Assembly (NCBI GenBank): GCA_035326305.1
Contig: DAOLFO010000041.1
Span: forward strand, 1-15,567
Direction of reading: 5' to 3'
Length of the DNA: 15,567 bases
DNA from: Chitinophagaceae bacterium
GTDB lineage: Bacteria; Bacteroidota; Bacteroidia; Chitinophagales; Chitinophagaceae
Positions within the stretch are counted from its first letter, which is position 1; each line of letters begins with the position of its first letter. Shown in pieces: positions 354-11,590 of this stretch. The notes under the pieces are model-generated. The model was not told where the DNA came from and made no database searches. It saw nothing but the letters and a program-made list of their open reading frames with translations. Position numbers and translations under genes: made by a program.

Positions 354-968
354 ATGGAAAAAGTAATTAACAGCATACCGGGCTACCGGGTATATGAATA
401 CCTGCTGGTGCTGAGCCCGCATGAGGAGCTGTGGAATAAAATCATGAAAGTGAAGGATGAGTTTGCCACTGCTTATGATCAGGAACAGGCGAGGTGGGGC
501 AAGCCGCATGTGACGCTGGTAAGCTTTATACAGTATGCCATGATGGAGGAGCGGCTGGTAAACCGGCTGCGCACGGTGGCGATGGGCACCACACCGTTTA
601 AAGTGGAGCTGAAAGATTTTGGCAGCTTCCCTGCGCATACCATTTATATCAATGTGCTGAGCAAAGTGCCGGTGCAGACACTGATTAAAAATATACGGCA
701 TGAAACGCAGCGGCTGATGAAGCTGAATGAGGACAATAAGCCGCACTTCATACTGGAGCCGCACCTGACGATAGCCCGGCGGCTGCAGCCCTGGCAATAT
801 GAGAAGGGCTGGCAGGAGTATAGTCACCGGTCGTTTACAGGAAGGTTTATTGCAGATAGCGTGACACTGCTGCGAAGGCCGGTGGGGGAACTGAAGTACC
901 AGGCCGTGCGGCGTTTTGCCTTTCAGAATATGCCGGTGCGCACAAAGCAGGGGGAATTGTTTGGGTGA
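354..968 (+). CDS. 2H phosphoesterase superfamily protein, LigT-like (RNA 2',3'-cyclic phosphodiesterase / 2'-5' RNA ligase family)
   Basis: 204 aa with two H-x-T-x motifs (PHVTLVSF near residue 52, PHLTIARR near residue 138) about 86 residues apart, the defining pair of the 2H/LigT fold. The size is typical (E. coli LigT is 176 aa). Confidence 0.65.
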   Translation: MEKVINSIPGYRVYEYLLVLSPHEELWNKIMKVKDEFATAYDQEQARWGKPHVTLVSFIQYAMMEERLVNRLRTVAMGTTPFKVELKDFGSFPAHTIYINVLSKVPVQTLIKNIRHETQRLMKLNEDNKPHFILEPHLTIARRLQPWQYEKGWQEYSHRSFTGRFIADSVTLLRRPVGELKYQAVRRFAFQNMPVRTKQGELFG

Positions 969-1060
969 GAGGGTTTGAAGTTTGAAGTTTAAAGTTTGAG
1001 GTGTAAGGTTTAGGTGTTTAATAGGTTTAAGAAGTTCAAGAGGTTAAAAAAGTTTAAAGG
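966..1060 (+). repeat. Copy A of a C-depleted heptamer-array repeat (gtttgaa gtttgaa gtttaaa gtttgag gtgtaag gtttagg ... ggtttaagaagttcaagaggtt...)
   Basis: A tandem of degenerate 7-mers GTTTRAR/GTTCAAR seen directly in the sequence. It starts at the TGA stop (966-968) of the upstream gene. The block ggtttaagaagttcaagagg is shared with copy B. Confidence 0.8.
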
Positions 1061-1088
1061 GGTCTGGGGGAAATTATCAGCGGGGGGT

Positions 1089-1505
1089 ATGCGTATGGAA
1101 ATGAAGAACGGGAAAGTGCATGAGCCGCTTTCCGGCAGGGAAAAATACCTGACCGGGCAGGTGGTGGGCATTGCCATAGCGATACACAGGGCACTGGGTC
1201 CGGGACTGCCGGTGCAGGTATACGAAAGATGCTTTTGCCACGAGCTTCACAAAAGAGAAATAGGTTATGTGCGGCAGCATAAAATTGATTTGGTATATGA
1301 TGATATACGGATAGAGGATGGCTTGCAAATAGATATTTTGATAGATGACCTTATCATCATTGAGCTGAAAGCGCAGGAAGCGCATCACCCTGCCTGGGAG
1401 GCCCGGTTGCTAAGCTGCTTAAGGCTGACAAAGAAACGACTGGGCTATATACTGAATTTCCATGCGCCGTTGATGAAAGAGGGTATTAAGCGAATGATAA
1501 TCTGA
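1089..1505 (+). CDS. GxxExxY family protein (PD-(D/E)XK nuclease superfamily)
   Basis: The core ...GKVHEPLSGREKYLTGQVVGIAIAIHRALGPGLPVQVYERCFCHELHKREIGYVRQHKIDLVYDDIRIEDGLQIDILIDDLIIIELKAQEA...LGYILNFHAPLMKEGIKRMII matches the conserved GxxExxY layout (HR.LGPGLLE.VYE ... ELK ... INF). The ORF-track start at 1014 runs through repeat A (FKKFKRLKKFKG) and is probably an artefact. Likely starts are Met 1089, 1095 or 1101. Confidence 0.75.
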   Translation: MRMEMKNGKVHEPLSGREKYLTGQVVGIAIAIHRALGPGLPVQVYERCFCHELHKREIGYVRQHKIDLVYDDIRIEDGLQIDILIDDLIIIELKAQEAHHPAWEARLLSCLRLTKKRLGYILNFHAPLMKEGIKRMII

Positions 1506-1570
1506 TATAACTATTTTTTTATTCACTGTGTTACTCTGTGTCTCCGTGTCGTTGTGCTTAAAAATGAGCT

Positions 1571-2695
1571 ATGAGTAATCAGTTAAAGCAGGACCACTAT
1601 AAAGTGGCCCCGAAAAAGCAGGAGGAAGCAGCGGGAGAAAAAGCGGGCAGCTATATTGCCGGAAGAGGGGCGCAATTCAATACGAAAAACCGGTTTCTGA
1701 AAGATGAACGGACCCGGGAGCATATCGAAGGCATTGATGACTGGGAAGAAGCCATACAACCCACACAATATATCGAGCAGCAGGCAAAGACGATTGTGAA
1801 TAAGGTGGAGAGCAAAGATGTGGGCATGGGCTACAGCATGAATCCGTATGCCGGCTGTGAGCATGGCTGTATCTACTGCTATGCACGCAATGTGCATGAA
1901 TACTGGGGCTATAGCGCCGGGCTGGACTTTGAGCAGAAAATCATTGTAAAAAAGAATGCACCGCAACTGCTGCGGAAATTCCTGATGCACAAAAGCTGGG
2001 ATGCCACACCCATCATGCTCAGTGGTAATACCGACTGCTATCAGCCCGCCGAACAAAAATACCGGCTGACGCGGGGGCTGCTGGAGGTTTGCAATGAGTT
2101 TAACCAGCCGGTGGGCATACTGACTAAAAATTCATGGATACTGAAGGATAAGGATGTACTGCAGGAAATGGGGCGGAAAAAAATAGTATCGGCCATGGTG
2201 TCTATTACTTCCTTTAATGAAGACCTGCGCCGGGTAATGGAGCCGAGAACAACTACTGCCAGGCAAAAACTAAAAGTGATTAATGAATTGAGCAGCGCCG
2301 GTGTGCGCATGGGCATCATGATGGGGCCGATGATACCCGGCCTGAATGAGCATGAGATGCAGCGCATCATGAAAGCGGCGGCAGACAATGGCGCCACGTT
2401 TACCGCCTATACTTTCATCCGGCTGAACGGGGCCATCAAGTTTTTGTTTCATGACTGGTTGTATAAAAACTTTCCTGACCGGGCAGATAAAATATGGCAC
2501 CTGATAGAAAAAAGCCACGATGGCAAAGTAAATGATACCCGGTGGGGAGTACGTATGAGGGGGGAAGGGCCGATAGCAGAGATAGTGGCGCAGCAGTATA
2601 AAAAGTATGGAAAGCTCTATGGGATGAATGCAGAGGAGTGGAGCCTTGAGAGGAACCTGTTCAGGAGGCCGGGCGAGCAGGGAAGGTTGTTTTGA
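1571..2695 (+). CDS. Radical SAM protein, PA0069/SplB-like family (COG1533 'DNA repair photolyase'-type)
   Basis: 374 aa with the CxxxCxxC cluster in YAGCEHGCIYCYARN. Length and layout match the PA0069-family rSAM proteins. Its TGA stop (2693-2695) is the first triplet of repeat copy B. Confidence 0.7.
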   Translation: MSNQLKQDHYKVAPKKQEEAAGEKAGSYIAGRGAQFNTKNRFLKDERTREHIEGIDDWEEAIQPTQYIEQQAKTIVNKVESKDVGMGYSMNPYAGCEHGCIYCYARNVHEYWGYSAGLDFEQKIIVKKNAPQLLRKFLMHKSWDATPIMLSGNTDCYQPAEQKYRLTRGLLEVCNEFNQPVGILTKNSWILKDKDVLQEMGRKKIVSAMVSITSFNEDLRRVMEPRTTTARQKLKVINELSSAGVRMGIMMGPMIPGLNEHEMQRIMKAAADNGATFTAYTFIRLNGAIKFLFHDWLYKNFPDRADKIWHLIEKSHDGKVNDTRWGVRMRGEGPIAEIVAQQYKKYGKLYGMNAEEWSLERNLFRRPGEQGRLF

Positions 2696-2750
2696 GATTT
2701 GGGAGGTTTAAGAAGTTCAAGAGGTTTAAAGTTTAATGTTTAAGGTTGGG
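2693..2750 (+). repeat. Copy B of the heptamer-array repeat (tgagatttgg gaggtttaa gaagttcaa gaggtttaa agtttaa tgtttaa ggttggg)
   Basis: Seen directly. It shares TGAGATTTG with copy C, ggtttaagaagttcaagaggtttaaa with copy A and gtttaaggttggg with copy D. Confidence 0.8.
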
Positions 2751-3110
2751 TGGTGTTAAAGTACCAGGGAAGGCTTGTTGTAACAGGTTGCCGGTAAAAA
2801 TAGCAGCAAGCATAACGATGAGGTTTTTGAAATCTGCTTAAGAATGTCTGCAATGGTTACAGGCAGGCATCACCTGATACGAGATGGCGGTGAAAGAGCT
2901 GCTATAAATTATTTTTTAAAAATTCTTCTTCAAAAATTTGGCAACAACAAAAAAATAGTTTCATCTTTGCACCGCAAAACAAAAAACATGCTACGCATAC
3001 AGTTACATATTGAAGCAGGAAATTGGTTTAGCCCCAAAGGAGGCTATACCAGTTGCGGGGCATGTAGTGCTGCGAATTAAGTTGCAATAACTCATTCAAT
3101 GAAATACAGG

Positions 3111-3140
3111 CCCCGCAAGAGATTGCGGGGTTTTTGTTTG
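3111..3140 (+). terminator. Rho-independent terminator (CCCCGCAA-gaga-TTGCGGGG + TTTTTGTTTG)
   Basis: A perfect 8-bp GC-rich stem, 4-nt loop and T-run. There is no convincing protein gene upstream, so it probably ends an ncRNA or leader. Confidence 0.7.
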
Positions 3141-3399
3141 TATATATTTCACCACCTGCCGGCATCCTGACAGATGCTGAAGCGGGAGTAAGAAAATAAA
3201 AATCAAAAGAGATAAATGACAGTGTTATCATGGTATCATCAGTTGGGGAGTAAAAAAAATACACCCTTAGGCATGTGCTGCTTTATAAAAGCAGTTGCGG
3301 GGAATGGTGTGCCCGTTATGCAAATTGATAACCGAAATAAAAATAAAAGACCGGATGGTATTCCGATACGGGTGTGTTAACACCTGTCAGCAGGATTAA

Positions 3400-3430
3400 G
3401 CCCGGTCAGCAGTTGACCGGGCTTTTTTAT
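3400..3430 (+). terminator. Rho-independent terminator (GCCCGGTCA-gcagt-TGACCGGGC + TTTTTTAT)
   Basis: A 9-bp stem, 5-nt loop and T6 run, immediately upstream of the SD of the 45-aa ORF. A T-run follows only on the + strand. Confidence 0.7.
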
Positions 3431-3450
3431 ACCCGGAAAAAGGAGGAGCT

Positions 3451-3588
3451 ATGAAATTTTTGCTGGCTGTACTGGTAATTCACCTGGTAATCGCTTTTAT
3501 CAGCAACAGGAAAGAAAATAAAAAAATGCAGCAGGGGCAGCCGAAAGCTGATGGTGCTTTGCATCCGGCGGAGTACCTGCTGCGCTAA
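3451..3588 (+). CDS. Small ORF, 45 aa, hydrophobic N-terminal helix plus charged tail (MKFLLAVLVIHLVIAFISNRKENKKMQQGQPKADGALHPAEYLLR)
   Basis: An ATG preceded by AGGAGG 4 nt upstream, which is unusual in this genome style. One predicted TM helix followed by a basic tail. It sits between a terminator and the tRNA-like genes. Confidence 0.3.
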   Translation: MKFLLAVLVIHLVIAFISNRKENKKMQQGQPKADGALHPAEYLLR

Positions 3589-3702
3589 CAGGATTATGTG
3601 CAGAAGGAGGGATAAAGCTCCCCGCAGGTGCAGCGGGGATGCTTTTCCAAAAAAACAACCGTTAAACCTACTATGAAAATGGCGGCAGCAATGCCGCTGC
3701 CT

Positions 3703-3775
3703 ATAGCAGCATTCCAATTGGTTGGATACTCCGCCTGGAACGGAGAGGATGCAGGTTCGAGCCCTGCCTGCTATA
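3703..3775 (+). tRNA. tRNA-like gene, 73 nt cloverleaf, anticodon UGG (Pro) at canonical positions, with C8 and C33
   Basis: Hand fold of 3703..3775. Acceptor ATAGCAG/CTGCTAT is 7/7 paired. D-arm TTCC-AATTGGTT-GGAT has G18G19. Anticodon stem CTCCG/CGGAG with loop CCTGGAA. Variable loop AGGAT. T-arm GCAGG-TTCGAGC-CCTGC has a canonical T-loop. Discriminator A. The deviations are A1-U72, C8 (normally U), C33 (normally U) and one D-stem mismatch. Confidence 0.5.
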
Positions 3776-3860
3776 CATTAATTGTTATGAATTTAGAGAG
3801 AGAGAGAAGCCGGAGGCTTAAGCCATCCGCTAAAACAGTATGAATAAACAAGAGCAGTAC

Positions 3861-3933
3861 GGTGCTTTGGCAGAATGGATAGATGCGCCGGAGTGAAATC
3901 CCGGAGATCGTGGTTCAATTCCACGGGGCACCA
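3861..3933 (+). tRNA. tRNA-like gene, 73 nt cloverleaf, anticodon GAA (Phe), followed by CC
   Basis: Hand fold. Acceptor GGTGCTT/GGGCACC with two G-U pairs, U8. D-arm GCAG-AATGGATAG-ATGC. Anticodon stem CCGGA/CCCGG with an A31-C39 mismatch and loop GUGAAAU (U33, G34A35A36, A37). Variable loop AGAT. T-arm CGTGG-TTCAATT-CCACG. Discriminator A73, then CC at 3934-3935. G32 is unusual. Confidence 0.5.
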
Positions 3934-3971
3934 CCGGAAGAGTAGAAAATAAAAAAAGAAAACAAAGGAAA

Positions 3972-4499
3972 ATGGAGGCCGATATGGAAGAGACACAGCT
4001 ACAATGGAGAAAGCTGAACGGTGAGCGGCTGCGGATACCTATTGCCGAAGAAGTAAGCCGCATATTAATGCAGGAACGTGCTATGGGATATGATGTGAAA
4101 GCCTGTATTGGCACCGATAGCCAGGTGAAAGGTAAAGTGACAACGTTTGCTACCGTTATAGTATTTGTCCGGAAAGGAAAAGGCGGCTTCATGTATATAA
4201 GGAAAGAAGTTACAACACAGCGGATGAGCATCAAACAAAGGATGCTGGAAGAGGTGGCCAGGAGCGTGGAAGTGGCTTATGGGCTGTGCCGGTTATTTTC
4301 CCGGCATGGAGTGGATATGGAAGTGCATGCGGATATAAACACCAATCCGGGCTTCAAAAGCAACGATGCGTTAAAGGACGCCATGGGCTATATCATGGGA
4401 ATGTTTGCCCGGCCGGGAGAAACGGGTGGAGGCTTTGCCTTCAGGGCTAAACCGGATGCTTTTGCCAGCTCCAGTTGTGCAAATAAAATAGTGCAATAA
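3972..4499 (+). CDS. Hypothetical protein, possibly DUF458/YkuK-like RNase H-fold family
   Basis: 175 aa. CIGTDSQ near residue 45, VTTFATVIVFVRKGKGG, EVHADINTNP and a C-terminal AFASSSCANKIVQ resemble what I recall of the YkuK (DUF458) family. The family call is from memory, not a search. The gene itself is solid (clean ORF, co-oriented, 36 nt after tRNA-like 2). Confidence 0.45.
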   Translation: MEADMEETQLQWRKLNGERLRIPIAEEVSRILMQERAMGYDVKACIGTDSQVKGKVTTFATVIVFVRKGKGGFMYIRKEVTTQRMSIKQRMLEEVARSVEVAYGLCRLFSRHGVDMEVHADINTNPGFKSNDALKDAMGYIMGMFARPGETGGGFAFRAKPDAFASSSCANKIVQ

Positions 4500-4529
4500 C
4501 ACATAGCGGAGAGCTATAAATTTTTTTTA

Positions 4530-5606
4530 ATGGAACATTTATTTAATCAGAAAATCATCAATGCCAATAACGTGTTTGATGATGTATTCCTGGATGCGAA
4601 GATGCTGTACCTGTACTGCTTCAATCATTTGCCCAGCAGGAATTTTATTGACCGGGTGGACGGCGAAAAAGCCTTTGCTGCGTTTAAAGAGCGCTATGCA
4701 GATATGATTGAGCACATTCATCAGTACCGGTGGTATCAGCAGGAGAAAAGGAAGTACCGGTTTGACCGGACTGTATTGATCCTGAAGAACAATTGCATTG
4801 CGGAGTTTGATGAAAACTATTGTGAGTTTTATCATGATGGCGGGGATGCAGGGTTTGCAGATGAATTGACGGCGCTGGTATGCCAGTTTAAAGAGCGGCA
4901 GCGCAGACAGCCCCTGGAGATTAACCTGATTGTGAAAAATAGCAGGGGGCTGTACCTGAAGGGTATGGAGATAAAACGTACAAAGCTGGATCTTGACCTG
5001 TATTATGAAGATGATTTTAAGGAAGTGGATCAGTTGATAAGGGAGCGGTTGTCGAAGAAAAATGATAAAGGCATCGTGTTGCTGCACGGGCTGCCGGGTA
5101 CGGGTAAAACAACTTACCTGCGCCACCTGGTGGGCAGGATACGGAAGCGGGTGCTTTTCCTGTCGCCATCGGTAGCGGATGATCTGATGAACCCGGATTT
5201 TATCGAGCTGCTTATTGATAACCCCAATACCGTACTGATCGTGGAAGATGCGGAAAATATTATCAGGGACAGGAAGTATAGCAATAACACATCGGTATCA
5301 AACCTGCTGAACATCTCTGACGGGCTGCTGGCGGATTTCCTTAATGTGCAACTGATCTGTACGTTCAACAGTTCGCTGACAATGATAGATCATGCGCTGA
5401 TGCGGAAAGGAAGGCTGATAGCCAGGTATGAGTTTGGTAAGCTGAGCGCCGGGAAAAGCCAGCGGCTGAGCGACCGGTTTGGCTTTAAAACAAGCATCAG
5501 CGGGCCGATGACGATAGCGGAGATTGCCAACCAGCATGAGAAAAGGCAGGAGCCGGAAAAAGTGGAGATAATCGGGTTCCGGCGCACTGCAGAATTGATG
5601 AATTGA
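4530..5606 (+). CDS. AAA+ family ATPase (classical AAA core in the C-terminal half, uncharacterised ~170-aa N-terminal domain)
   Basis: Walker A GLPGTGKTT, Walker B VLIVEDAE, and SRH/arginine-finger region HALMRKGRLIARYEFG. There is no protease or other fused domain, and the N-terminal region has no recognisable motifs. Confidence 0.85.
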   Translation: MEHLFNQKIINANNVFDDVFLDAKMLYLYCFNHLPSRNFIDRVDGEKAFAAFKERYADMIEHIHQYRWYQQEKRKYRFDRTVLILKNNCIAEFDENYCEFYHDGGDAGFADELTALVCQFKERQRRQPLEINLIVKNSRGLYLKGMEIKRTKLDLDLYYEDDFKEVDQLIRERLSKKNDKGIVLLHGLPGTGKTTYLRHLVGRIRKRVLFLSPSVADDLMNPDFIELLIDNPNTVLIVEDAENIIRDRKYSNNTSVSNLLNISDGLLADFLNVQLICTFNSSLTMIDHALMRKGRLIARYEFGKLSAGKSQRLSDRFGFKTSISGPMTIAEIANQHEKRQEPEKVEIIGFRRTAELMN

Positions 5607-5803
5607 TTTCAACCTGATAGCTGACCGGGTGTCAGCGCAAAAGCTTGCTTAACGGCAGGGCTGGTATTGCCTCTCCGGCAGTTAAACTATGCTTGTGTTT
5701 TTTAAAGGCACAGCAGTGCAGGCGCTATAGCTACCTGTATGCTGTTGCTGCAGCAGGGCATACCGGTAACACGCAGTTTCCTGAACGGGAAGTGCAACCA
5801 CTT

Positions 5804-5839
5804 GCAGGTTCGAGTCCTGCTTCTCCCCCAACGGGAGAA
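5804..5839 (+). other. Isolated tRNA T-arm plus acceptor-like hairpin (minihelix-like tRNA fragment)
   Basis: GCAGG-TTCGAGT-CCTGC is a canonical T-stem/T-loop, 16/17 identical to the T-arm of the 3703 tRNA-like gene. It is followed by TTCTCCC-ccaac-GGGAGAA. No 5' acceptor strand or anticodon arm could be folded upstream. Confidence 0.35.
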
Positions 5840-6206
5840 TGGCGGAATTGGTAAACGCAAAGCAATGGGGATGCTTCGTAAAAAGAAGTACACCACTTCT
5901 TAAAAAATGGTGAAGTGATAAAGCTGGTATTTCATGCCGGCCATACAATTCCCTGGTACTTCGCCGGTGTACGTTTTGGGTATGCTGGCACATGGCGGGA
6001 AGTATGGCAACCGGCTAACGGCCTGCAGGCAGGTAATGTACAGATGGCTTGTATAATAAAGGCGATGACTGGCAGTAGGCAAAAAGCTTGCAGGCACTTG
6101 TTGCATAAAATATACAATAGTTTAGGCTCAGCCTGCCTCCGCTGATAGCCGGTGGTATGAAATACTGGTTTTATTAAACAGGTAATAACAGTTAAAAGAT
6201 AAAAAA

Positions 6207-7307
6207 ATGAAAAAAGTAAAAGTAAATGAATACCAGGTGGCGCTGGTTTTCAAAGACGGGGAGTATAAGAGGATGCTGACCAAAGGCGTGTACTGGTTTT
6301 GGGGAAATGAAGTGATACAGTATTATGATAAAACCAGGCCATTTGCAGCACCGATTGACCTGAATATCCTTTTGCAGGATAAAGCGCTGGCCGATGCCCT
6401 GTATGTAACCGATGTAAAAGAGAACGAGATAGTACTGCAGTATGAGCAGGGATTGCTGAGCAACGTGCTGGTTGCCGGAAGGTATGCTTTCTGGAAAGGT
6501 ATTGTTGATTATAAATTTGTATGGGCGGATATTGGTAAGATAGCCATCACTGAAGATATCAGCAGGACTATACTGATGAGCAGGCAGGTAGCGCCATATG
6601 TGCGTACCGTAAATGTGGAGAATTATGAAAAAGCGATCCTGTTTGCAGACGGTAAATATGACCGGGTGCTTGACAGCGGTGTGTACTACTGGTGGAAGAA
6701 CAGCATCACAGTGCATATAGCGAGGGTGGACATGCGCCAGCAGCAACTGGAGATCAATGGCCAGGAAATACTGACCAGGAATAAAGCGGCATTGCGCATC
6801 AATGCGTGGGCACAGTATAGGGTAGCAGATATAGAGACAGCTATATTGGATAACAAGGAGTATGATAAGCAGCTCTATGTAGCTTTCCAACTGGCCCTGC
6901 GGGAATATGTGGCCGGCTTCAGTTTTGATGAGCTGCTGGAGAAGAAAGATACCGTTGCAAAGTTTGTGCTGGAGCAAATGAAGCAGAAAGCAAAAGAGCT
7001 GGGCGTGGACGTGAATGACTTCGGCATCAGGGATATCATATTGCCGGGTGATGTGAAAGAGATCATGAACCAGGTACTGATAGCAGAGAAGAAAGCACAG
7101 GCTAACACTATCATGCGCCGGGAAGAAACAGCCAGCACCCGGAGCCTGCTGAACACTGCCAAACTGATGGAGGATAATGTAATGCTATGGAAGCTGAAGG
7201 AAATGGAGTATGTAGAGAAAATTGCAGATAAGATCACTAACATCAGTGTAAATGGTAACGGTGACCTGGTAAGCCAGTTGAAGCAGATATTTGTGGCGCA
7301 GAAATAA
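6207..7307 (+). CDS. SPFH/band-7 (stomatin/slipin-like) domain protein with a duplicated N-terminal module
   Basis: 366 aa. The N-terminus has an internal repeat (NEYQVALVFKDGEYKRMLTKGVYWFWG vs ENYEKAILFADGKYDRVLDSGVYYWWK). An SPFH core follows (LEINGQEILTRNKAALRINAWAQYRV...ILPGDVKEIMNQVLIAEKKAQANTIMRREE) with a coiled-coil-like C-terminus. Confidence 0.8.
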   Translation: MKKVKVNEYQVALVFKDGEYKRMLTKGVYWFWGNEVIQYYDKTRPFAAPIDLNILLQDKALADALYVTDVKENEIVLQYEQGLLSNVLVAGRYAFWKGIVDYKFVWADIGKIAITEDISRTILMSRQVAPYVRTVNVENYEKAILFADGKYDRVLDSGVYYWWKNSITVHIARVDMRQQQLEINGQEILTRNKAALRINAWAQYRVADIETAILDNKEYDKQLYVAFQLALREYVAGFSFDELLEKKDTVAKFVLEQMKQKAKELGVDVNDFGIRDIILPGDVKEIMNQVLIAEKKAQANTIMRREETASTRSLLNTAKLMEDNVMLWKLKEMEYVEKIADKITNISVNGNGDLVSQLKQIFVAQK

Positions 7308-7312
7308 ACACA

Positions 7313-7346
7313 CATCCGGTGCCGGCCGGTGCCGGATGTTTTTTAT
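7313..7346 (+). terminator. Strong rho-independent terminator (CATCCGGTGCCGG/CCGGTGCCGGATG hairpin + TTTTTTAT)
   Basis: A GC-rich stem of about 11-13 bp centred on CCGGCCGG, followed by a T6 run, 6 nt after the SPFH stop. Confidence 0.75.
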
Positions 7347-7352
7347 TTGAAA

Positions 7353-7405
7353 TGAGATTTGAAGTTTGAGGTTTAATGTTTAAAAGGTTCAGGAGGTTTA
7401 AAAAT
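7353..7405 (+). repeat. Copy C of the heptamer-array repeat (tgagatttgaa gtttgag gtttaat gtttaaa aggttcag gaggtttaaaaa)
   Basis: Seen directly. It lies between the SPFH terminator and the rtcB start, and its left end TGAGATTTG is identical to copy B. Confidence 0.8.
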
Positions 7406-7411
7406 AGTTTT

Positions 7412-8857
7412 ATGAGCAAATTAAAAATAACAGGGAAAGACCTGAGAGCTATTGATTACCCGGAGGGCCCGGTGATCAGCATAGCCATGCGTGTGGTGCA
7501 TAAGCATTACAAGCATCATGAAAAGGAGGAGGTAATGGACATATTAAAAAGAATACTGGCGGAGCCGGTGGAGTATGAGAAGGATGCGGTGCTGGGATTG
7601 ATAGCAGCGCAACTAATGCCAAAGAAGAAGGAAGGGAATGCAGAAATATCATTGAACCAGCAGGGAATACAATTTAGTGTATTCGGGCAGGAGCATATTG
7701 AAGAAGGGGCGATGCACCAGATGTACCAGGCGGCAAAGTTGCCCATAGCAGTTGCAGGTGCTTTGATGCCGGATGCCCATAGCGGGTACGGACTGCCTAT
7801 TGGTGGCGTATTAGCTACGCAAAATGCAGTGATACCTTATGGTGTGGGAGTAGACATCGGGTGCCGGATGTGCCTGAGCCTGTATGATATTGATCCAAAA
7901 GAGCTGGTGAACCGGGAGGCATTTTTTATACGGGAGCTGGGTGTGGCTACACTGTTTGGAAGCGGTGCACAATTTCAGCAAGCTGCCGATCATGCCGTGA
8001 TGGAGAATGAGCTGTTCAGGCAATTGCCATTGCTTAAACCCTTGCACGGAAGGGCATGGAAACAATTGGGATCATCCGGCTCCGGTAATCACTTTGCCGA
8101 ATTTGGGATAGTGGAAATAGCAGAGAAGGATGCTGTGCCGGGTGTGGAAGCGGGAAGCTATGTAGGTTTTCTGACGCACTCCGGTTCACGGGCATTGGGG
8201 GCCAATATTGCCAACCATTATACAAAGCTGGCCATCAGCAAAAGACGGCTGCCGCAGGAAGCGAAAAACCTGGCCTGGCTGACACTTGATGAAGCAGAGG
8301 GACATGAGTACTGGCTGGCGATGAACCTGGCCGGGGATTATGCATCGGCCTGCCACCATGTGATGCACGATAAGATTGCTAAACAACTGGGAAGAAAACC
8401 ACTAAAGCGGGTGGAGAACCACCACAACTTTGCCTGGAAGGAAATGTATGAAGGGCAGGAGGTAATTGTACACAGAAAAGGCGCTACACCTGCAGGGAAA
8501 GATGTGCTGGGTATTATTCCCGGTTCGATGACGGCAGCCGGGTTTATTGTAAAAGGTAAAGGAGAGGTTGCCTCTGTCAACTCAGCATCCCATGGTGCAG
8601 GAAGAAAGATGAGCCGCAGCAAAGCACTGCAATCAGTAACGGACAGGCAAATGAGAGAGGAACTGGATAAGCATGGCGTGAAACTGCTGGGTGGCGGACT
8701 GGATGAATCGCCATTTGCTTACAAGGACATTCATGTAGTGATGCAATCGCAACAATTGCTGGTGGATATAGTAGGACAGTTTACGCCAAAAATTGTAAAG
8801 ATGGATGGCGCACCACATAAGCAGTGGGGGAAGAAGGGTTCGGGAGGCAGGGTTTAA
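7412..8857 (+). CDS. rtcB: RNA-splicing ligase RtcB (3'-phosphate/2',3'-cyclic phosphate to 5'-OH RNA ligase)
   Basis: MPDAHSGYGLPIGGVLAT...IPYGVGVDIGCRM, GSGNHFAEF, ENHHNFAW and SASHGAGRKMSR are hallmark RtcB metal/GTP-binding motifs. The ORF-track start at 7376 reads through repeat C (MFKRFRRFKNSF), so Met at 7412 (MSKLKITGKDL) is the more likely start. Confidence 0.9.
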   Translation: MSKLKITGKDLRAIDYPEGPVISIAMRVVHKHYKHHEKEEVMDILKRILAEPVEYEKDAVLGLIAAQLMPKKKEGNAEISLNQQGIQFSVFGQEHIEEGAMHQMYQAAKLPIAVAGALMPDAHSGYGLPIGGVLATQNAVIPYGVGVDIGCRMCLSLYDIDPKELVNREAFFIRELGVATLFGSGAQFQQAADHAVMENELFRQLPLLKPLHGRAWKQLGSSGSGNHFAEFGIVEIAEKDAVPGVEAGSYVGFLTHSGSRALGANIANHYTKLAISKRRLPQEAKNLAWLTLDEAEGHEYWLAMNLAGDYASACHHVMHDKIAKQLGRKPLKRVENHHNFAWKEMYEGQEVIVHRKGATPAGKDVLGIIPGSMTAAGFIVKGKGEVASVNSASHGAGRKMSRSKALQSVTDRQMREELDKHGVKLLGGGLDESPFAYKDIHVVMQSQQLLVDIVGQFTPKIVKMDGAPHKQWGKKGSGGRV

Positions 8858-8892
8858 AGTTCAAAGTTTAAAGTTCAAGGTTTAAGGTTGGG
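8851..8892 (+). repeat. Copy D of the heptamer-array repeat (ggtttaaa gttcaaa gtttaaa gttcaag gtttaag gttggg)
   Basis: Seen directly. The rtcB stop codon TAA (8855-8857) lies inside the first unit. Its right end gtttaaggttggg matches copy B. Confidence 0.8.
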
Positions 8893-8965
8893 ACAGAATG
8901 GTTTTTGTCGCATTTGCCCCGTATAATAGTCGGCTATAGCACGCCTGTGGTAAAGTGTGCGGATA

Positions 8966-8994: not shown

Positions 8995-9387
8995 ATGAAG
9001 ACGTACAAAATTATTTACTGGATATCCACTTCCCTGTTATTCATTTTTCAGGGAGTGATGCCTGCCCTGACCGGGCATACAGAAATGGCAAAAGAAGGGA
9101 TACGCCATCTTGGTTATCCCGAATATTTCGGAACAGCCTTAACAGTGGCCAAAGTGATCGGCGCCGTAGCGCTGATCCTTCCGCAGGTACCACGTACGGT
9201 CAGGGAGTGGGCTTATGCCGGCTTTGCCTTTGATTTTACTTTTGCTTTTATCAGCCTGGTGGCGGTGGATGGCTGGATGGCCAGCTCCTTTTTCCCATTA
9301 GTGACAATGGCGGTGCTGATTATCTCCTATTACTGTTATCACCGGCTGCGGGCAGCCCGCGCATTATCATCAGTGCGCAGCCTGTAA
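8995..9387 (+). CDS. DoxX-like family membrane protein
   Basis: 130 aa with four predicted TM segments. MKTYKIIYWISTSLL...HLGYPEYFGTALTVAKVIGAVALILPQVPRTVREWAYAGFAFDF follows the DoxX-like pattern (HLGFP.YF, KEWAYAGF). Confidence 0.65.
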   Translation: MKTYKIIYWISTSLLFIFQGVMPALTGHTEMAKEGIRHLGYPEYFGTALTVAKVIGAVALILPQVPRTVREWAYAGFAFDFTFAFISLVAVDGWMASSFFPLVTMAVLIISYYCYHRLRAARALSSVRSL

Positions 9388-11254: not shown

Positions 11255-11590
11255 AGCTGGTTGGTTTGGATAAATGTAGCTTATTGTGGGGGGAAAAGCA
11301 AATGGTGAGGGACTTGTTGAGGGGTTGAGTTGTTGAGGATGAGATTAAGATAACGGTGGGGTGGATAAAATAAGTTGATAGTGCGGGAGACGGCAACGGC
11401 CAACGAACAACAGGCCGGATGCCGGGTCATGAGCTGCGGATGGGTGTTTAAACACCAGTATTGGTTTCCCTATGAAAATAGCTGTGTAAGGAAGTACGGA
11501 AATAATTTATGGCAATAATTTTGTGGCGCCGGCTGCCAAATCTTATTAACCGCTGGGGATAATTGATTCAAGCTAAGCCAATTTTATTCC

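What the first reader, a model, noticed from the sequence alone, without database searches (positions are those of the whole stretch)
966..8892. Four related copies of a nearly C-free heptamer-array element at gene boundaries
Four loci (966-1060, 2693-2750, 7353-7405, 8851-8892) carry tandem degenerate heptamers GTTTRAR/GTTCAAR. They share longer blocks: ggtttaagaagttcaagaggtttaaa in A and B, tgagatttg at the left end of B and C, and gtttaaggttggg in B and D. All are in the same orientation as the flanking + strand genes. The top strand has almost no C, so any transcript would be G/U/A-only. The unit number varies (about 14, 7, 6 and 5), like a minisatellite. Four copies in 15 kb implies a dispersed family, and I do not recognise it as REP, BOX, an attC site or a CRISPR array. 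If transcribed, the repeats could be 3'UTR/5'UTR protein-binding arrays. At the DNA level they could be recombination or insertion sites.
Basis: seen in the sequence. Interest (0 to 1): 0.8.

Follow-up and report, generated by a model that had tools for sequence, protein, structure and literature searches.

The report
Heptamer repeat arrays abutting stop codons
Four short runs of a repeated 7–9-base unit (GTTTAAA/GTTCAAG-like) sit exactly at gene ends in a Chitinophagaceae genome; they belong to the long-known but unexplained class of bacterial heptanucleotide tandem repeats, and following them showed that this repeat class nearly always brackets small "S23p/four-helix-bundle" genes of the kind found in ribosomal RNA intervening sequences.

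Summary
Four C-poor arrays of GTTY+3–5 purines lie at 966–1060, 2693–2751, 7353–7411 and 8852–8893, all on the + strand (13 two-unit matches vs 0.21 expected). Three begin at or in the stop codon of the upstream gene; the fourth fills the spacer between a terminator and the rtcB start. They are unstructured, match no Rfam family, and are absent from every orthologous locus in related Chitinophagaceae, so they are recent lineage-specific insertions and not part of the surrounding RNA-repair cluster. They belong to a known class: heptanucleotide long SSRs (STRR-like). The same unit occurs in >120 genomes of many phyla, other tandem repeats in those loci are overwhelmingly period 7, and this organism carries further heptamer arrays with unrelated units. 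Two regularities emerged that I did not find published. Sense-oriented arrays start within about −6 to +18 nt of the upstream stop codon (p≈1e-15). PF05635 (S23p/23S-rRNA-IVS protein) genes are bracketed by heptamer arrays, usually inverted, in 13 of 14 cases sampled independently of arrays, including a true 23S rRNA IVS and a Riemerella cassette with GTTYRAR arms. Whether the window's solo arrays derive from such cassettes is inferred, not shown.

The parts
966..1060 (+). Array A. It starts with the TGA stop of the LigT-like gene (966-968). Six heptamers follow (973-1014: GTTTGAA x2, GTTTAAA, GTTTGAG, GTGTAAG, GTTTAGG), then a 10-mer, then four 9-mers (1025-1060: GTTTAAGAA, GTTCAAGAG, GTTAAAAAA, GTTTAAAGG).
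   Evidence: It is absent from orthologous LigT|PDDEXK_3 junctions, where the spacer is 22 nt, and from LigT|rSAM junctions.
2693..2751 (+). Array B. It starts with the TGA stop of the radical SAM gene (2693-2695). Units: GTTTAAGAA, GTTCAAGAG, GTTTAAA, GTTTAAT, GTTTAAG, GTTGGGT.
   Evidence: The rSAM C-terminus (...LF*) is conserved in relatives, which have no array after the stop.
7353..7411 (+). Array C. It fills the spacer between the terminator T-run and the rtcB ATG (7412). Units: ATTTGAA, GTTTGAG, GTTTAAT, GTTTAAAAG, GTTCAGGAG, GTTTAAAAA, TAGTTTT.
   Evidence: Relatives have unrelated spacers at this position.
8852..8893 (+). Array D. Units: GTTTAAA, GTTCAAA, GTTTAAA, GTTCAAG, GTTTAAG, GTTGGGA (14-nt super-period). 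The first unit supplies GTT-TAA, the last sense codon and the stop of rtcB (8855-8857).
   Evidence: 114 of 119 RtcB homologues end ...GE*, whereas this one ends GKKGSGGRV*. Relatives have a hairpin terminator at this position, and no + strand terminator-like site follows array D until 9270.
7312..7346 (+). Terminator-like hairpin (12 pairs) plus T-run after the SPFH gene. This forms the left boundary of array C.
   Evidence: A similar hairpin is present in relative L125.
1095..1505 (+). PDDEXK_3 / GxxExxY gene, a small cassette gene between LigT and rSAM. Array A replaced its 5' arm. Public gene calls that start at GTG 1014 translate part of array A.
   Evidence: Pfam PF13366, 106 bits. The start was fixed by alignment to orthologues. 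Orthologous cassettes are shown.
1524..1556 (+). 3' arm of the PDDEXK_3 cassette (CACTGTGTTACTCTGTGTCTCCGTGTCGTTGTG; CTCTGTG-type short repeats). It is not part of the GTTYRAR family.
   Evidence: The same CTCTGTG-type arm lies downstream of GxxExxY genes in Bacteroides finegoldii, Bernardetia and L184 and in Chitinophagaceae orthologues.
11300..11345 (+). Possible fifth, degenerate array (GTTGAGG / GTTGAGGG units) in a C-poor stretch between divergent genes. Membership is uncertain.
   Evidence: TRF reports period 8 x 2.9 copies at 11316-11338. A C-free run covers 11314-11353. Not followed up.

Best explanation
The four loci are solo arrays of a 7-9-nt simple-sequence repeat (unit GTTY plus 3-5 purines). 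They are a Bacteroidota member of the heptanucleotide 'long SSR' / STRR class.

Shown:
- They are recent, lineage-specific DNA additions. Each is placed at a boundary: the stop codon of the LigT-like, radical SAM and rtcB genes, or the T-run of a terminator.
- Where comparison allows, they stand in place of the ancestral spacer. That includes the hairpin terminator after rtcB, the 5' arm of the PDDEXK_3 cassette, and the last six or so codons of rtcB.
- They have no secondary structure.
- They are not a conserved component of the RNA-repair cluster around them.

Inferred:
- They are co-transcribed with the + strand genes as C-free, unstructured 3'UTR or intercistronic RNA.
- They change length by slipped-strand mispairing. 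The 14-nt super-period of D and the runs of identical neighbouring units fit local duplication.
- They are largely neutral passengers. Their one visible effect is to supply stop codons and to displace terminators.
- Because SSR growth cannot by itself move an array up against a stop codon, the arrays are most likely deposited there directionally. The likely source is the same process that builds the heptamer-array arms of S23p/IVP (PF05635) cassettes, whose upstream arm likewise runs from the preceding stop codon. This last step is the weakest.
For: Reality and excess over chance.

Known class: heptanucleotide repeats are the most abundant long SSR in most genomes and are scattered across the phylogeny (Mrazek 2007, as summarised in PMC4679880; PMC4692102). 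Other heptamer direct repeats are noted in Bacteroidetes intergenic regions.

Generality: arrays of four or more units occur in >120 genome contigs from many phyla, where about 0.07 would be expected under uniform base composition (my estimate). Among other tandem repeats in those loci, 119 clusters have period 7, against 4 with period 6 and 25 with period 8.

Same organism: heptamer arrays with unrelated units are also present (TACGATT, TGGTCGT, CGATTTA, ACTCAAT).

Lineage specificity: all four arrays are absent in L125-L128 (RtcB 80-83% identical) and in L254-L264. Relatives have essentially no period-7 arrays in 76 kb, against about 9 in about 30 kb here.

Boundaries: the LigT and rSAM C-termini are conserved up to the stop, while the rtcB tail is replaced.

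No structure and no RNA family.

General abutment rule: for 33 sense-oriented arrays between co-oriented genes, the median relative position in the spacer is 0.025 (KS p=3e-17). For 35 antisense arrays, placement is indistinguishable from uniform. The rule holds in low-GC loci (11/11), for confident ORFs (p=1e-15), and for units without sense-frame stops.

Cassette link.
Against: - No unit-number polymorphism was seen among three 99.8-99.9% identical contigs, although a GA dinucleotide run did vary. Slippage is therefore slow or constrained.
- A and B share a 23-nt two-unit block more often than unit-order shuffles give (7/500). This hints at copying between loci, not independent growth.
- The orientation-dependent stop-codon abutment is not predicted by neutral slippage. 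It could instead reflect an RNA-level or translation-level function.
- None of the four arrays has an inverted partner or an adjacent PF05635 gene. The cassette origin is therefore inferred only.
- There are no transcript data. The genome-wide count in this organism is unknown, since only about 30 kb is held.
Confidence: 0.6

Rival explanations
1. The arrays are solo arms, scars or landing pads of IVS-type selfish cassettes. These are small genes (S23p/IVP PF05635, GxxExxY PF13366) carried between terminal arrays of short tandem repeats. The cassettes insert directly after stop codons, and loss of the ORF plus one arm, or recombination between arrays, leaves solo arrays.
For: - PF05635 genes are flanked by period 7-9 arrays on both sides in 13/14 cases sampled without regard to arrays. 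In array-selected loci the figures are 9/16 on both sides and 16/16 on at least one side, against 4.5% of 1360 control ORFs with arrays on both sides.
- In 50 kb of a Trichormus plasmid, the only two heptamer arrays are the pair around the four-helix-bundle gene.
- A true 23S rRNA IVS has heptamer arms. The Coxiella IVS has GACAGAT repeats upstream of S23p (PMC4990558).
- The Riemerella cassette arms are GGTTTAAGGTTCAAGGTTTAAG / TAAACCTTAAACC..., the same family as the window's arrays.
- Upstream arms run from the preceding stop codon, matching the abutment rule.
- Tight inverted pairs have the same G-arm-first polarity, 21:1.
- This organism's own IVP gene has GTTGATT/GTTTAG-type inverted arms.
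- The window's region is rich in such insertions: PDDEXK_3, IVP, and DUF559 in relatives.
Against: - None of arrays A-D has an inverted partner or adjoins a PF05635 gene.
- Array A is not an arm of the PDDEXK_3 cassette. It replaced that cassette's 5' arm.
- 100 of 132 arrays elsewhere are solo, so most arrays exist without cassettes.
- No mobility mechanism is known for these cassettes.
- Causality could run the other way: the small genes may settle in pre-existing repeats.
Confidence: 0.25
2. The arrays act at the RNA level, as multivalent binding sites for a single-strand RNA-binding protein (S1, a cold-shock-domain protein or an RRM protein). Alternatively they serve as C-free, Rho-resistant, unstructured spacers that set translation termination or re-initiation, or 3'UTR stability.
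For: - The positional rule depends on the sense strand. This is what an RNA-level or translation-level constraint predicts.
- The arrays are unstructured.
- Array C ends 0-6 nt before the rtcB ATG, and array A lies 29-35 nt before the PDDEXK_3 start. This resembles TAACTGA repeats that sit directly upstream of start codons, for which S1, Csp and CsrA were proposed as binders (PMC4679880).
- From my own knowledge: cold-shock domains bind about 7 nt, and Bacteroidota initiate translation without Shine-Dalgarno pairing, on unstructured A/U-rich leaders.
Against: - The arrays are not conserved at any orthologous locus.
- Flanking genes have no common function.
- Overall orientation relative to genes is unbiased (33 sense vs 35 antisense; within Bacteroidota 8 vs 13).
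- Other heptamer arrays in the same organism are G-poor on the mRNA strand.
- No binding protein has been identified.
Confidence: 0.15
3. The arrays are a functional component of the RNA-repair (RtcB) cluster. They might be decoy or substrate RNA, or a regulatory site shared by the LigT-like, rSAM and rtcB genes.
For: All four lie within one 8-kb cluster encoding LigT-like, radical SAM, DUF458, AAA, SPFH and RtcB proteins, together with tRNA-like RNAs.
Against: - The same synteny in nine other Chitinophagaceae loci lacks every array.
- GTTYRAR arrays elsewhere flank unrelated genes.
Confidence: 0.02
4. The arrays are chance low-complexity AT-rich sequence, or translated coding sequence.
For: Public gene calls extend the PDDEXK_3 ORF into array A (163 aa from GTG 1014).
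Against: - 13 matches against 0.21 expected.
- GTTTRAR units place TAA or TGA in all three frames.
- Orthologues of PDDEXK_3 start at the position of ATG 1095.
Confidence: 0.01

Closest known systems
Heptanucleotide long simple sequence repeats (LSSR) of prokaryotic genomes (Mrazek, Guo and Shah 2007, as summarised in PMC4679880 and PMC4692102)
   Same: Tandem head-to-tail units of 7 nt. They are longer than chance allows, intergenic, scattered across the phylogeny and lineage-specific. Period 7 dominates over periods 6 and 8. Their function is unknown.
   Different: The GTTY+purine unit, its 7-to-9-nt length variation, and the rule that sense-oriented arrays abut the stop codon were not described in the papers I could read.
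STRR (short tandemly repeated repetitive) heptamers of heterocystous cyanobacteria (Calothrix/Nostoc; cited in PMC4692102)
   Same: Dispersed intergenic heptamer arrays with a few favoured units per genome.
   Different: Different phylum and different unit sequences. In my sample the cyanobacterial arrays flank four-helix-bundle genes, whereas the window's arrays are solo.
TAACTGA direct repeats of Beggiatoaceae, Cyanobacteria and some Bacteroidetes (MacGregor 2015, PMC4679880)
   Same: A heptamer unit containing stop codons. The repeats are intergenic, mostly co-oriented with genes, and occur alongside other heptamer repeats in Bacteroidetes spacers. Array C lies directly upstream of a start codon, as most TAACTGA sets do.
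   Different: Most TAACTGA sets abut start codons. Three of the four arrays here, and 85% of sense-oriented GTTYRAR arrays elsewhere, abut the upstream stop codon.
23S rRNA intervening sequences carrying an S23p/IVP ORF (Coxiella burnetii IVS, PMC4990558; Leptospira)
   Same: Tandem heptamers (GACAGAT in Coxiella) lie just upstream of the S23p start, and their copy number varies between strains. In 13 of 14 PF05635 genes examined here the arms are heptamer-type arrays, in one case of the GTTYRAR family.
   Different: The window's arrays have no inverted partner and no S23p ORF, and they are not in rRNA. No dsRNA stem for RNase III can form.
GGGAATC / GGGGAYT G-rich heptamer repeats of Xanthomonas and Nostoc (Rehm 2015, PMC4692102)
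   Same: G-rich, C-poor heptamer arrays in intergenic regions, sometimes as inverted pairs between convergent genes. Their length varies between related species.
   Different: Those repeats have G-runs able to form quadruplexes. GTTYRAR has none.

Membership tests
Heptanucleotide long SSR / STRR-type tandem repeats | Head-to-tail tandem copies of a unit of about 7 nt (5-11 nt) | tested here: met
   TRF reports period 7/14/21 and period 9 at all four loci.
Heptanucleotide long SSR / STRR-type tandem repeats | Arrays longer or more frequent than expected from base composition | tested here: met
   13 matches against 0.21 in dinucleotide-preserving shuffles; 0 of 200 shuffles reach 13.
Heptanucleotide long SSR / STRR-type tandem repeats | Intergenic, dispersed, lineage-specific occurrence, with period 7 favoured over neighbouring periods | tested here: met
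   Absent from orthologous loci. Relatives have essentially no period-7 arrays. In 833 kb of array-bearing loci, 119 clusters have period 7 against 4 with period 6 and 25 with period 8.
Heptanucleotide long SSR / STRR-type tandem repeats | Copy-number polymorphism between strains (slippage) | tested here: inconclusive
   The arrays are identical in three contigs that are 99.8-99.9% identical to the window. No relative of intermediate divergence was available; the next RtcB homologue is 83% identical.
IVS-type S23p/IVP cassette (arm of) | Adjacent PF05635 ORF | tested here: not met
   No PF05635 gene adjoins A-D. The organism's only PF05635 gene in the sequence held lies outside the window, at L123 20677-21066.
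IVS-type S23p/IVP cassette (arm of) | Inverted partner array able to form a stem | tested here: not met
   All matches are on the + strand. There is no YTYRAAC run of two or more units in the window. Folds are no better than shuffles.
IVS-type S23p/IVP cassette (arm of) | Excision or processing by RNase III | not testable with these tools
   Requires RNA end-mapping in wild type and an rnc mutant.
CRISPR array | Repeats of about 24-48 nt separated by unique spacers of similar length | tested here: not met
   Units are 7-9 nt and directly abut one another.
REP/BIME, BOX and integron attC sites | Imperfect palindrome that forms a stable hairpin in single-stranded form | tested here: not met
   RNA folding z-scores are +0.29, -0.17, +0.82 and -1.75. 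The antisense strand is essentially unfoldable.
Any curated RNA family (Rfam 15) | Covariance-model match | tested here: not met
   No match at the arrays at gathering thresholds or at E<=1.

The most novel reading that the evidence does not exclude
Bacterial heptanucleotide tandem repeats (STRR / long SSRs) have been unexplained since 1990 and 2007. They may be the terminal repeats, and the residue, of a widespread family of IVS-type selfish cassettes. These cassettes carry S23p/four-helix-bundle (PF05635) genes and, with their own CACAGAG/CTCTGTG arms, GxxExxY (PF13366) genes. They would insert directionally just after stop codons, G-rich arm first. Solo arrays such as the four in this window would be arms left behind or landing pads for them.
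Probability: 0.3. Interest if true: 0.8.

Novelty: new member of a known kind. Interest (0 to 1): 0.45.

Why it matters
Taken alone, the four arrays are one more example of heptanucleotide SSRs. Their practical consequences are modest:
- They mislead gene callers. The PDDEXK_3 ORF is extended into array A in public calls.
- They rewrote the C-terminus of RtcB.
- They replaced terminators.

The wider value lies in two regularities that give this old puzzle a testable handle:
- There is a strand-specific rule that arrays begin at the upstream stop codon.
- PF05635 genes, whose function is also unknown, are almost always bracketed by such arrays. This includes a genuine 23S rRNA intervening sequence.

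If the two are causally linked, heptamer over-representation, STRR repeats, rRNA IVSs and the many "four helix bundle protein" and "GxxExxY protein" genes of Bacteroidota and Cyanobacteria would be aspects of one mobile-cassette system.

Tried and rejected
- **Discrete mobile element defined by the shared A/B block.** Rejected. Unit-order shuffles explain the 13-mers.
- **Functional part of the RtcB RNA-repair cluster.** Rejected. The arrays are absent from nine syntenic loci.
- **Array A as the 5' arm of the PDDEXK_3 cassette.** Rejected. Orthologous cassettes have a CCACAGAGACACA arm in a 22-nt spacer and no GTTYRAR array.
- **PDDEXK_3 as a recent insertion unique to this lineage.** Rejected. 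Homologues 65-67% identical occupy the same LigT|rSAM position.
- **Stop-codon abutment as an ORF-calling artefact in GC-rich genomes.** Rejected. The rule holds in low-GC loci, for dominant ORFs with coding-type periodicity, and for units without stop codons.
- **IVP-array association as a by-product of selecting array-rich loci or of repeat-rich cyanobacteria.** Rejected, using 14 plasmid cases chosen by protein similarity only and a 50-kb base-rate control.
- **Dead ends.** The first look-up of RtcB failed because I used the wrong start, 7403 instead of 7412. Literature searches found no paper that generalises the heptamer-S23p link.

Full report
**1. The observation**

The window carries four arrays of a short unit, GTTY followed by 3-5 purines. 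They lie at 966-1060 (A), 2693-2751 (B), 7353-7411 (C) and 8852-8893 (D).

- Excess over chance: a two-unit pattern with one mismatch allowed matches 13 times. All matches are on the + strand and inside these loci. Dinucleotide-preserving shuffles give 0.21.
- Composition: the arrays hold 1, 1, 1 and 2 cytosines. The 88-nt C-free run around A exceeds every shuffle.
The A/B block is 23 nt, not 26. The 13-mers shared by B/C and B/D are what arrays built from the same units share by chance. The A/B block is reached by 7 of 500 unit-order shuffles.

**2. Surroundings**

The + strand encodes the following genes:
- a LigT-like 2',5'-RNA-ligase-superfamily protein (354-968);
- a PDDEXK_3/GxxExxY protein (about 1095-1505);
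- a radical SAM protein (1571-2695);
- a DUF458 RNaseH-like protein (3972-4499);
- an AAA ATPase (4530-5606);
- an SPFH protein (6207-7307);
- RtcB (7412-8857);
- a DoxX protein (8995-9387).

A non-coding stretch lies between the radical SAM and DUF458 genes. It holds terminator-ended small RNAs, one tRNA-like element and a tRNA-Phe.

Positions of the arrays:
- A and B begin with the TGA stop codons of the LigT-like and radical SAM genes.
- The first unit of D supplies GTT-TAA, the end of rtcB.
- C fills the space between the T-run of a 12-bp terminator-like hairpin (7312-7339) and the rtcB ATG.

The arrays do not fold better than shuffles, and their antisense strand is essentially unfoldable. 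No Rfam family matches them, even at E<=1.

**3. Origin and conservation**

The organism is a Chitinophagaceae MAG. Contigs of the same strain (99.8-99.9% identical) carry identical arrays, although a GA run at 3798-3800 varies.

Nine syntenic loci from other Chitinophagaceae, with RtcB 80-83% identical and PDDEXK_3 65-67% identical, lack all four arrays. Comparison with them shows:
- The LigT (GELFG*) and radical SAM (...LF*) C-termini are conserved up to the stop, so A and B start exactly at the stop.
- 114 of 119 RtcB homologues end ...GE*, whereas the window's protein ends GKKGSGGRV*. D therefore replaced about six codons.
- D also replaced the hairpin terminator that relatives have after rtcB.
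- A replaced a 22-nt spacer that, in orthologues, carries the 5' arm of the PDDEXK_3 cassette.

The arrays are thus recent, lineage-specific additions. They are not a component of the RNA-repair cluster.

**4. What kind of thing they are**

These came from Bacteroidota, Acidobacteriota, Verrucomicrobiota, Desulfobacterota, Planctomycetota and others. The 9-nt version did the same in metagenomes.
- Period: in the 833 kb around the genome hits, the other tandem repeats are overwhelmingly period 7 with diverse units. There are 119 such clusters, against 4 of period 6 and 25 of period 8.
- Same organism: further heptamer arrays with unrelated units are present. TACGATT, TGGTCGT and CGATTTA lie between umuC and umuD, and ACTCAAT lies before an epimerase gene.
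- Relatives: 76 kb from relatives has essentially none.

This is the phenomenon described as heptanucleotide long SSRs, which are over-represented and phylogenetically scattered (Mrazek et al. 2007, as summarised in PMC4679880 and PMC4692102). It also matches STRR repeats in cyanobacteria and TAACTGA repeats, for which other heptamer repeats in Bacteroidetes spacers were noted. I therefore file the finding as a new member of a known kind. Its function remains unknown in the literature I could search.

**5. A positional rule**

Across the 120 genome loci, orientation relative to the flanking genes is unbiased (33 sense, 35 antisense).

- Sense orientation: when the G-rich strand is the sense strand between co-oriented genes, the array sits at the very start of the spacer. 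The median relative position is 0.025, 85% lie in the first fifth, and KS p=3e-17.
- Antisense orientation: placement is indistinguishable from uniform (p=0.33).
- Robustness: the rule holds in low-GC loci (11/11 within -6 to +18 nt), for dominant ORFs with coding-type periodicity (p=1e-15), and for GTTC-only arrays that contain no sense-frame stops.
- The -6 offset: it recurs and means the first unit supplies GTT-TAA/TGA, as in array D.

Expansion of an SSR adds units inside the array and cannot move it toward a stop codon. The rule therefore points either to directional deposition at gene 3' ends or to a sense-strand constraint at the RNA or translation level. This is inference.

**6. Association with small cassette genes**

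I looked for relatives of two small genes: the window's PDDEXK_3 gene, which relatives L126-L128 lack at this position (homologues 65-67% identical were later found at the same LigT|rSAM junction in other Chitinophagaceae), and a PF05635 (23S-rRNA-IVS protein / S23p / four-helix-bundle) gene just outside the window. The search found PF05635 genes sitting between arrays.

- Array-selected loci: an iterated HMM found 16 PF05635 genes in 1.58 Mb. All 16 have a period 7-9 array within 150 nt on at least one side, and 9 have one on both sides. Of 1360 control ORFs, 4.5% have arrays on both sides.
- Array-independent sample: because those loci were chosen for arrays, I sampled PF05635 genes by protein similarity alone in plasmids. 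Of 14, 13 have arrays on both sides, usually as inverted complements with the purine/G-rich arm upstream.

| Organism | Context | Upstream arm | Downstream arm |
|---|---|---|---|
| Nostoc | between RNR beta and alpha | (AGTAGGG)8 | (TCCCTAC)5 |
| Picosynechococcus | between cas10 and cmr3 | (AGGAGATA)4 | (ATCTCCTA)3 |
| Geminocystis | plasmid | (AAAAGGG)n | (CTTTTCC)n |
| Azospirillum | inside a 23S rRNA gene (LSU model, 1143 bits) | (GAGGACG)4 | (GTCTTCT)4 |
| Riemerella | plasmid | GGTTTAAGGTTCAAGGTTTAAG | TAAACCTTAAACCTTGAA... |

- The Riemerella arms belong to the window's own unit family.
- Base rate: in 50 kb of a Trichormus plasmid with 39 genes, the only two heptamer arrays are the pair around the four-helix-bundle gene.
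- Published precedent: the one I found is the Coxiella IVS. It has two or three GACAGAT repeats upstream of S23p, with copy number varying between strains, and RNase III cuts at the first repeat (PMC4990558).
- GxxExxY genes have their own conserved arms: CACAGAG-type upstream and CTCTGTG-type downstream. These appear in Bacteroides, Bernardetia, L184, the Chitinophagaceae orthologues and, on the downstream side only, in the window at 1524-1556.

**7. Relation to the four arrays**

The link to the window's arrays is indirect.
- None of A-D has an inverted partner or an adjacent PF05635 gene.
- Elsewhere, 100 of 132 arrays are likewise solo.
- The 22 tight inverted pairs are G-arm-first 21 times out of 22, the same polarity as the cassettes.
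- Cassette upstream arms start at the preceding stop codon, as solo sense-oriented arrays do.
- The organism's own PF05635 gene has short GTTGATT/GTTTAG-type inverted arms.

My best reading (confidence 0.6) is that A-D are solo heptanucleotide SSR arrays. They are recent, non-essential, co-transcribed as unstructured C-free spacer RNA, and change by slippage. The idea that they were deposited by, or left over from, the cassette system is plausible but unproven (0.25-0.3). An RNA-level protein-binding or anti-Rho/translation role is the main alternative (0.15).

**8. Limits**

- ORFs were called by a simple longest-ORF rule.
- Array detection depends on TRF thresholds.
- The array-independent PF05635 sample comes from plasmids only and is mostly cyanobacterial (11 of 14).
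- Only about 30 kb of this organism's genome is held.
- No transcript or population data exist for it.

Noticed in passing
L249-L251, L267-L277 (plasmids); L030, L038, L140, L179, L184 and others: PF05635 (S23p / 23S-rRNA-IVS / 'four helix bundle') genes are bracketed by period 7-9 tandem arrays, usually inverted with the G/purine-rich arm upstream. This holds in 13/14 array-independent cases and in 16/16 array-selected cases on at least one side (9/16 on both sides). The genes often sit inside conserved operons (cas10|cmr3, cas6|cas4, RNR beta|alpha). I found this generalisation in no paper.
   Followed up: yes
L275 (Azospirillum lipoferum plasmid AZO_p2, 13689-15445): A genuine 23S rRNA intervening sequence carrying a PF05635 ORF has heptamer-array arms, (GAGGACG)x3.9 and (GTCTTCT)x4.1.
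   Followed up: yes
window 1095-1556; L252, L253, L184, L254-L264: GxxExxY/PDDEXK_3 genes form cassettes with conserved short-repeat arms across distant Bacteroidota: CACAGAG-type upstream and CTCTGTG-type downstream. The window keeps the 3' arm (1524-1556) but lost the 5' arm to array A.
   Followed up: partly
window 1014-1094: Public gene calls start the PDDEXK_3 ORF at GTG 1014 (160-163 aa) and so translate array A as MFNRFKKFKRLKKFKG.... Alignment to orthologues puts the start at about 1089-1095.
   Followed up: yes
window 8828-8857: The conserved C-terminal tail of Chitinophagaceae RtcB (...GKKGREEVxGE*) is replaced here by ...GKKGSGGRV*. The stop codon comes from the first repeat unit.
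   Followed up: yes
window 2760-3960 and 5640-5860: The RtcB cluster contains non-coding RNAs. There are three terminator-ended units (terminators at 3108-3133, 3398-3424 and 3619-3639). A tRNA-like element lies at 3703-3775 (Rfam tRNA 48.5 bits, not called by ARAGORN). tRNA-Phe lies at 3861-3935. A weak YrlA (Y-RNA-like) match lies at 5802-5858 (21.9 bits, E 0.62). No Ro/Rsr gene is present; instead there are DUF458, AAA and SPFH genes.
   Followed up: partly
L001 7848-8055 (= just upstream of the window, between umuC and umuD): A ~295-nt spacer holds two direct copies of a block made of AATCGTA/AATCAAA-type heptamers, plus ACGACCA repeats. Relatives have either overlapping genes at this junction, or a DUF559 (Vsr-like endonuclease) gene, or an unknown 198-aa gene. 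This looks like another hotspot for small-gene insertion.
   Followed up: partly
L003-L122: Tight inverted pairs of GTTYRAR arrays (up to 100 nt apart, common in Pyrinomonadaceae and other Acidobacteriota) are almost always arranged G-arm then C-arm (21:1). This DNA-level polarity reads the same on both strands.
   Followed up: partly
window 11300-11345: A C-poor stretch with GTTGAGG/GTTGAGGG repeats lies between divergent genes. It may be a degenerate fifth array in the same orientation.
   Followed up: no
window 3793-3802: A (GA)n run differs by one GA unit between the window and contig L002. It is the only indel among near-identical contigs, while the heptamer arrays are invariant.
   Followed up: no
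L001/L123 upstream of the window; L126, L127, L254-L264: The LigT-like and radical SAM pair is always divergently adjacent to a Peptidase_S24 + IMS (umuD/umuC-like) pair in Chitinophagaceae. This suggests a damage-inducible unit separate from the RtcB module.
   Followed up: no
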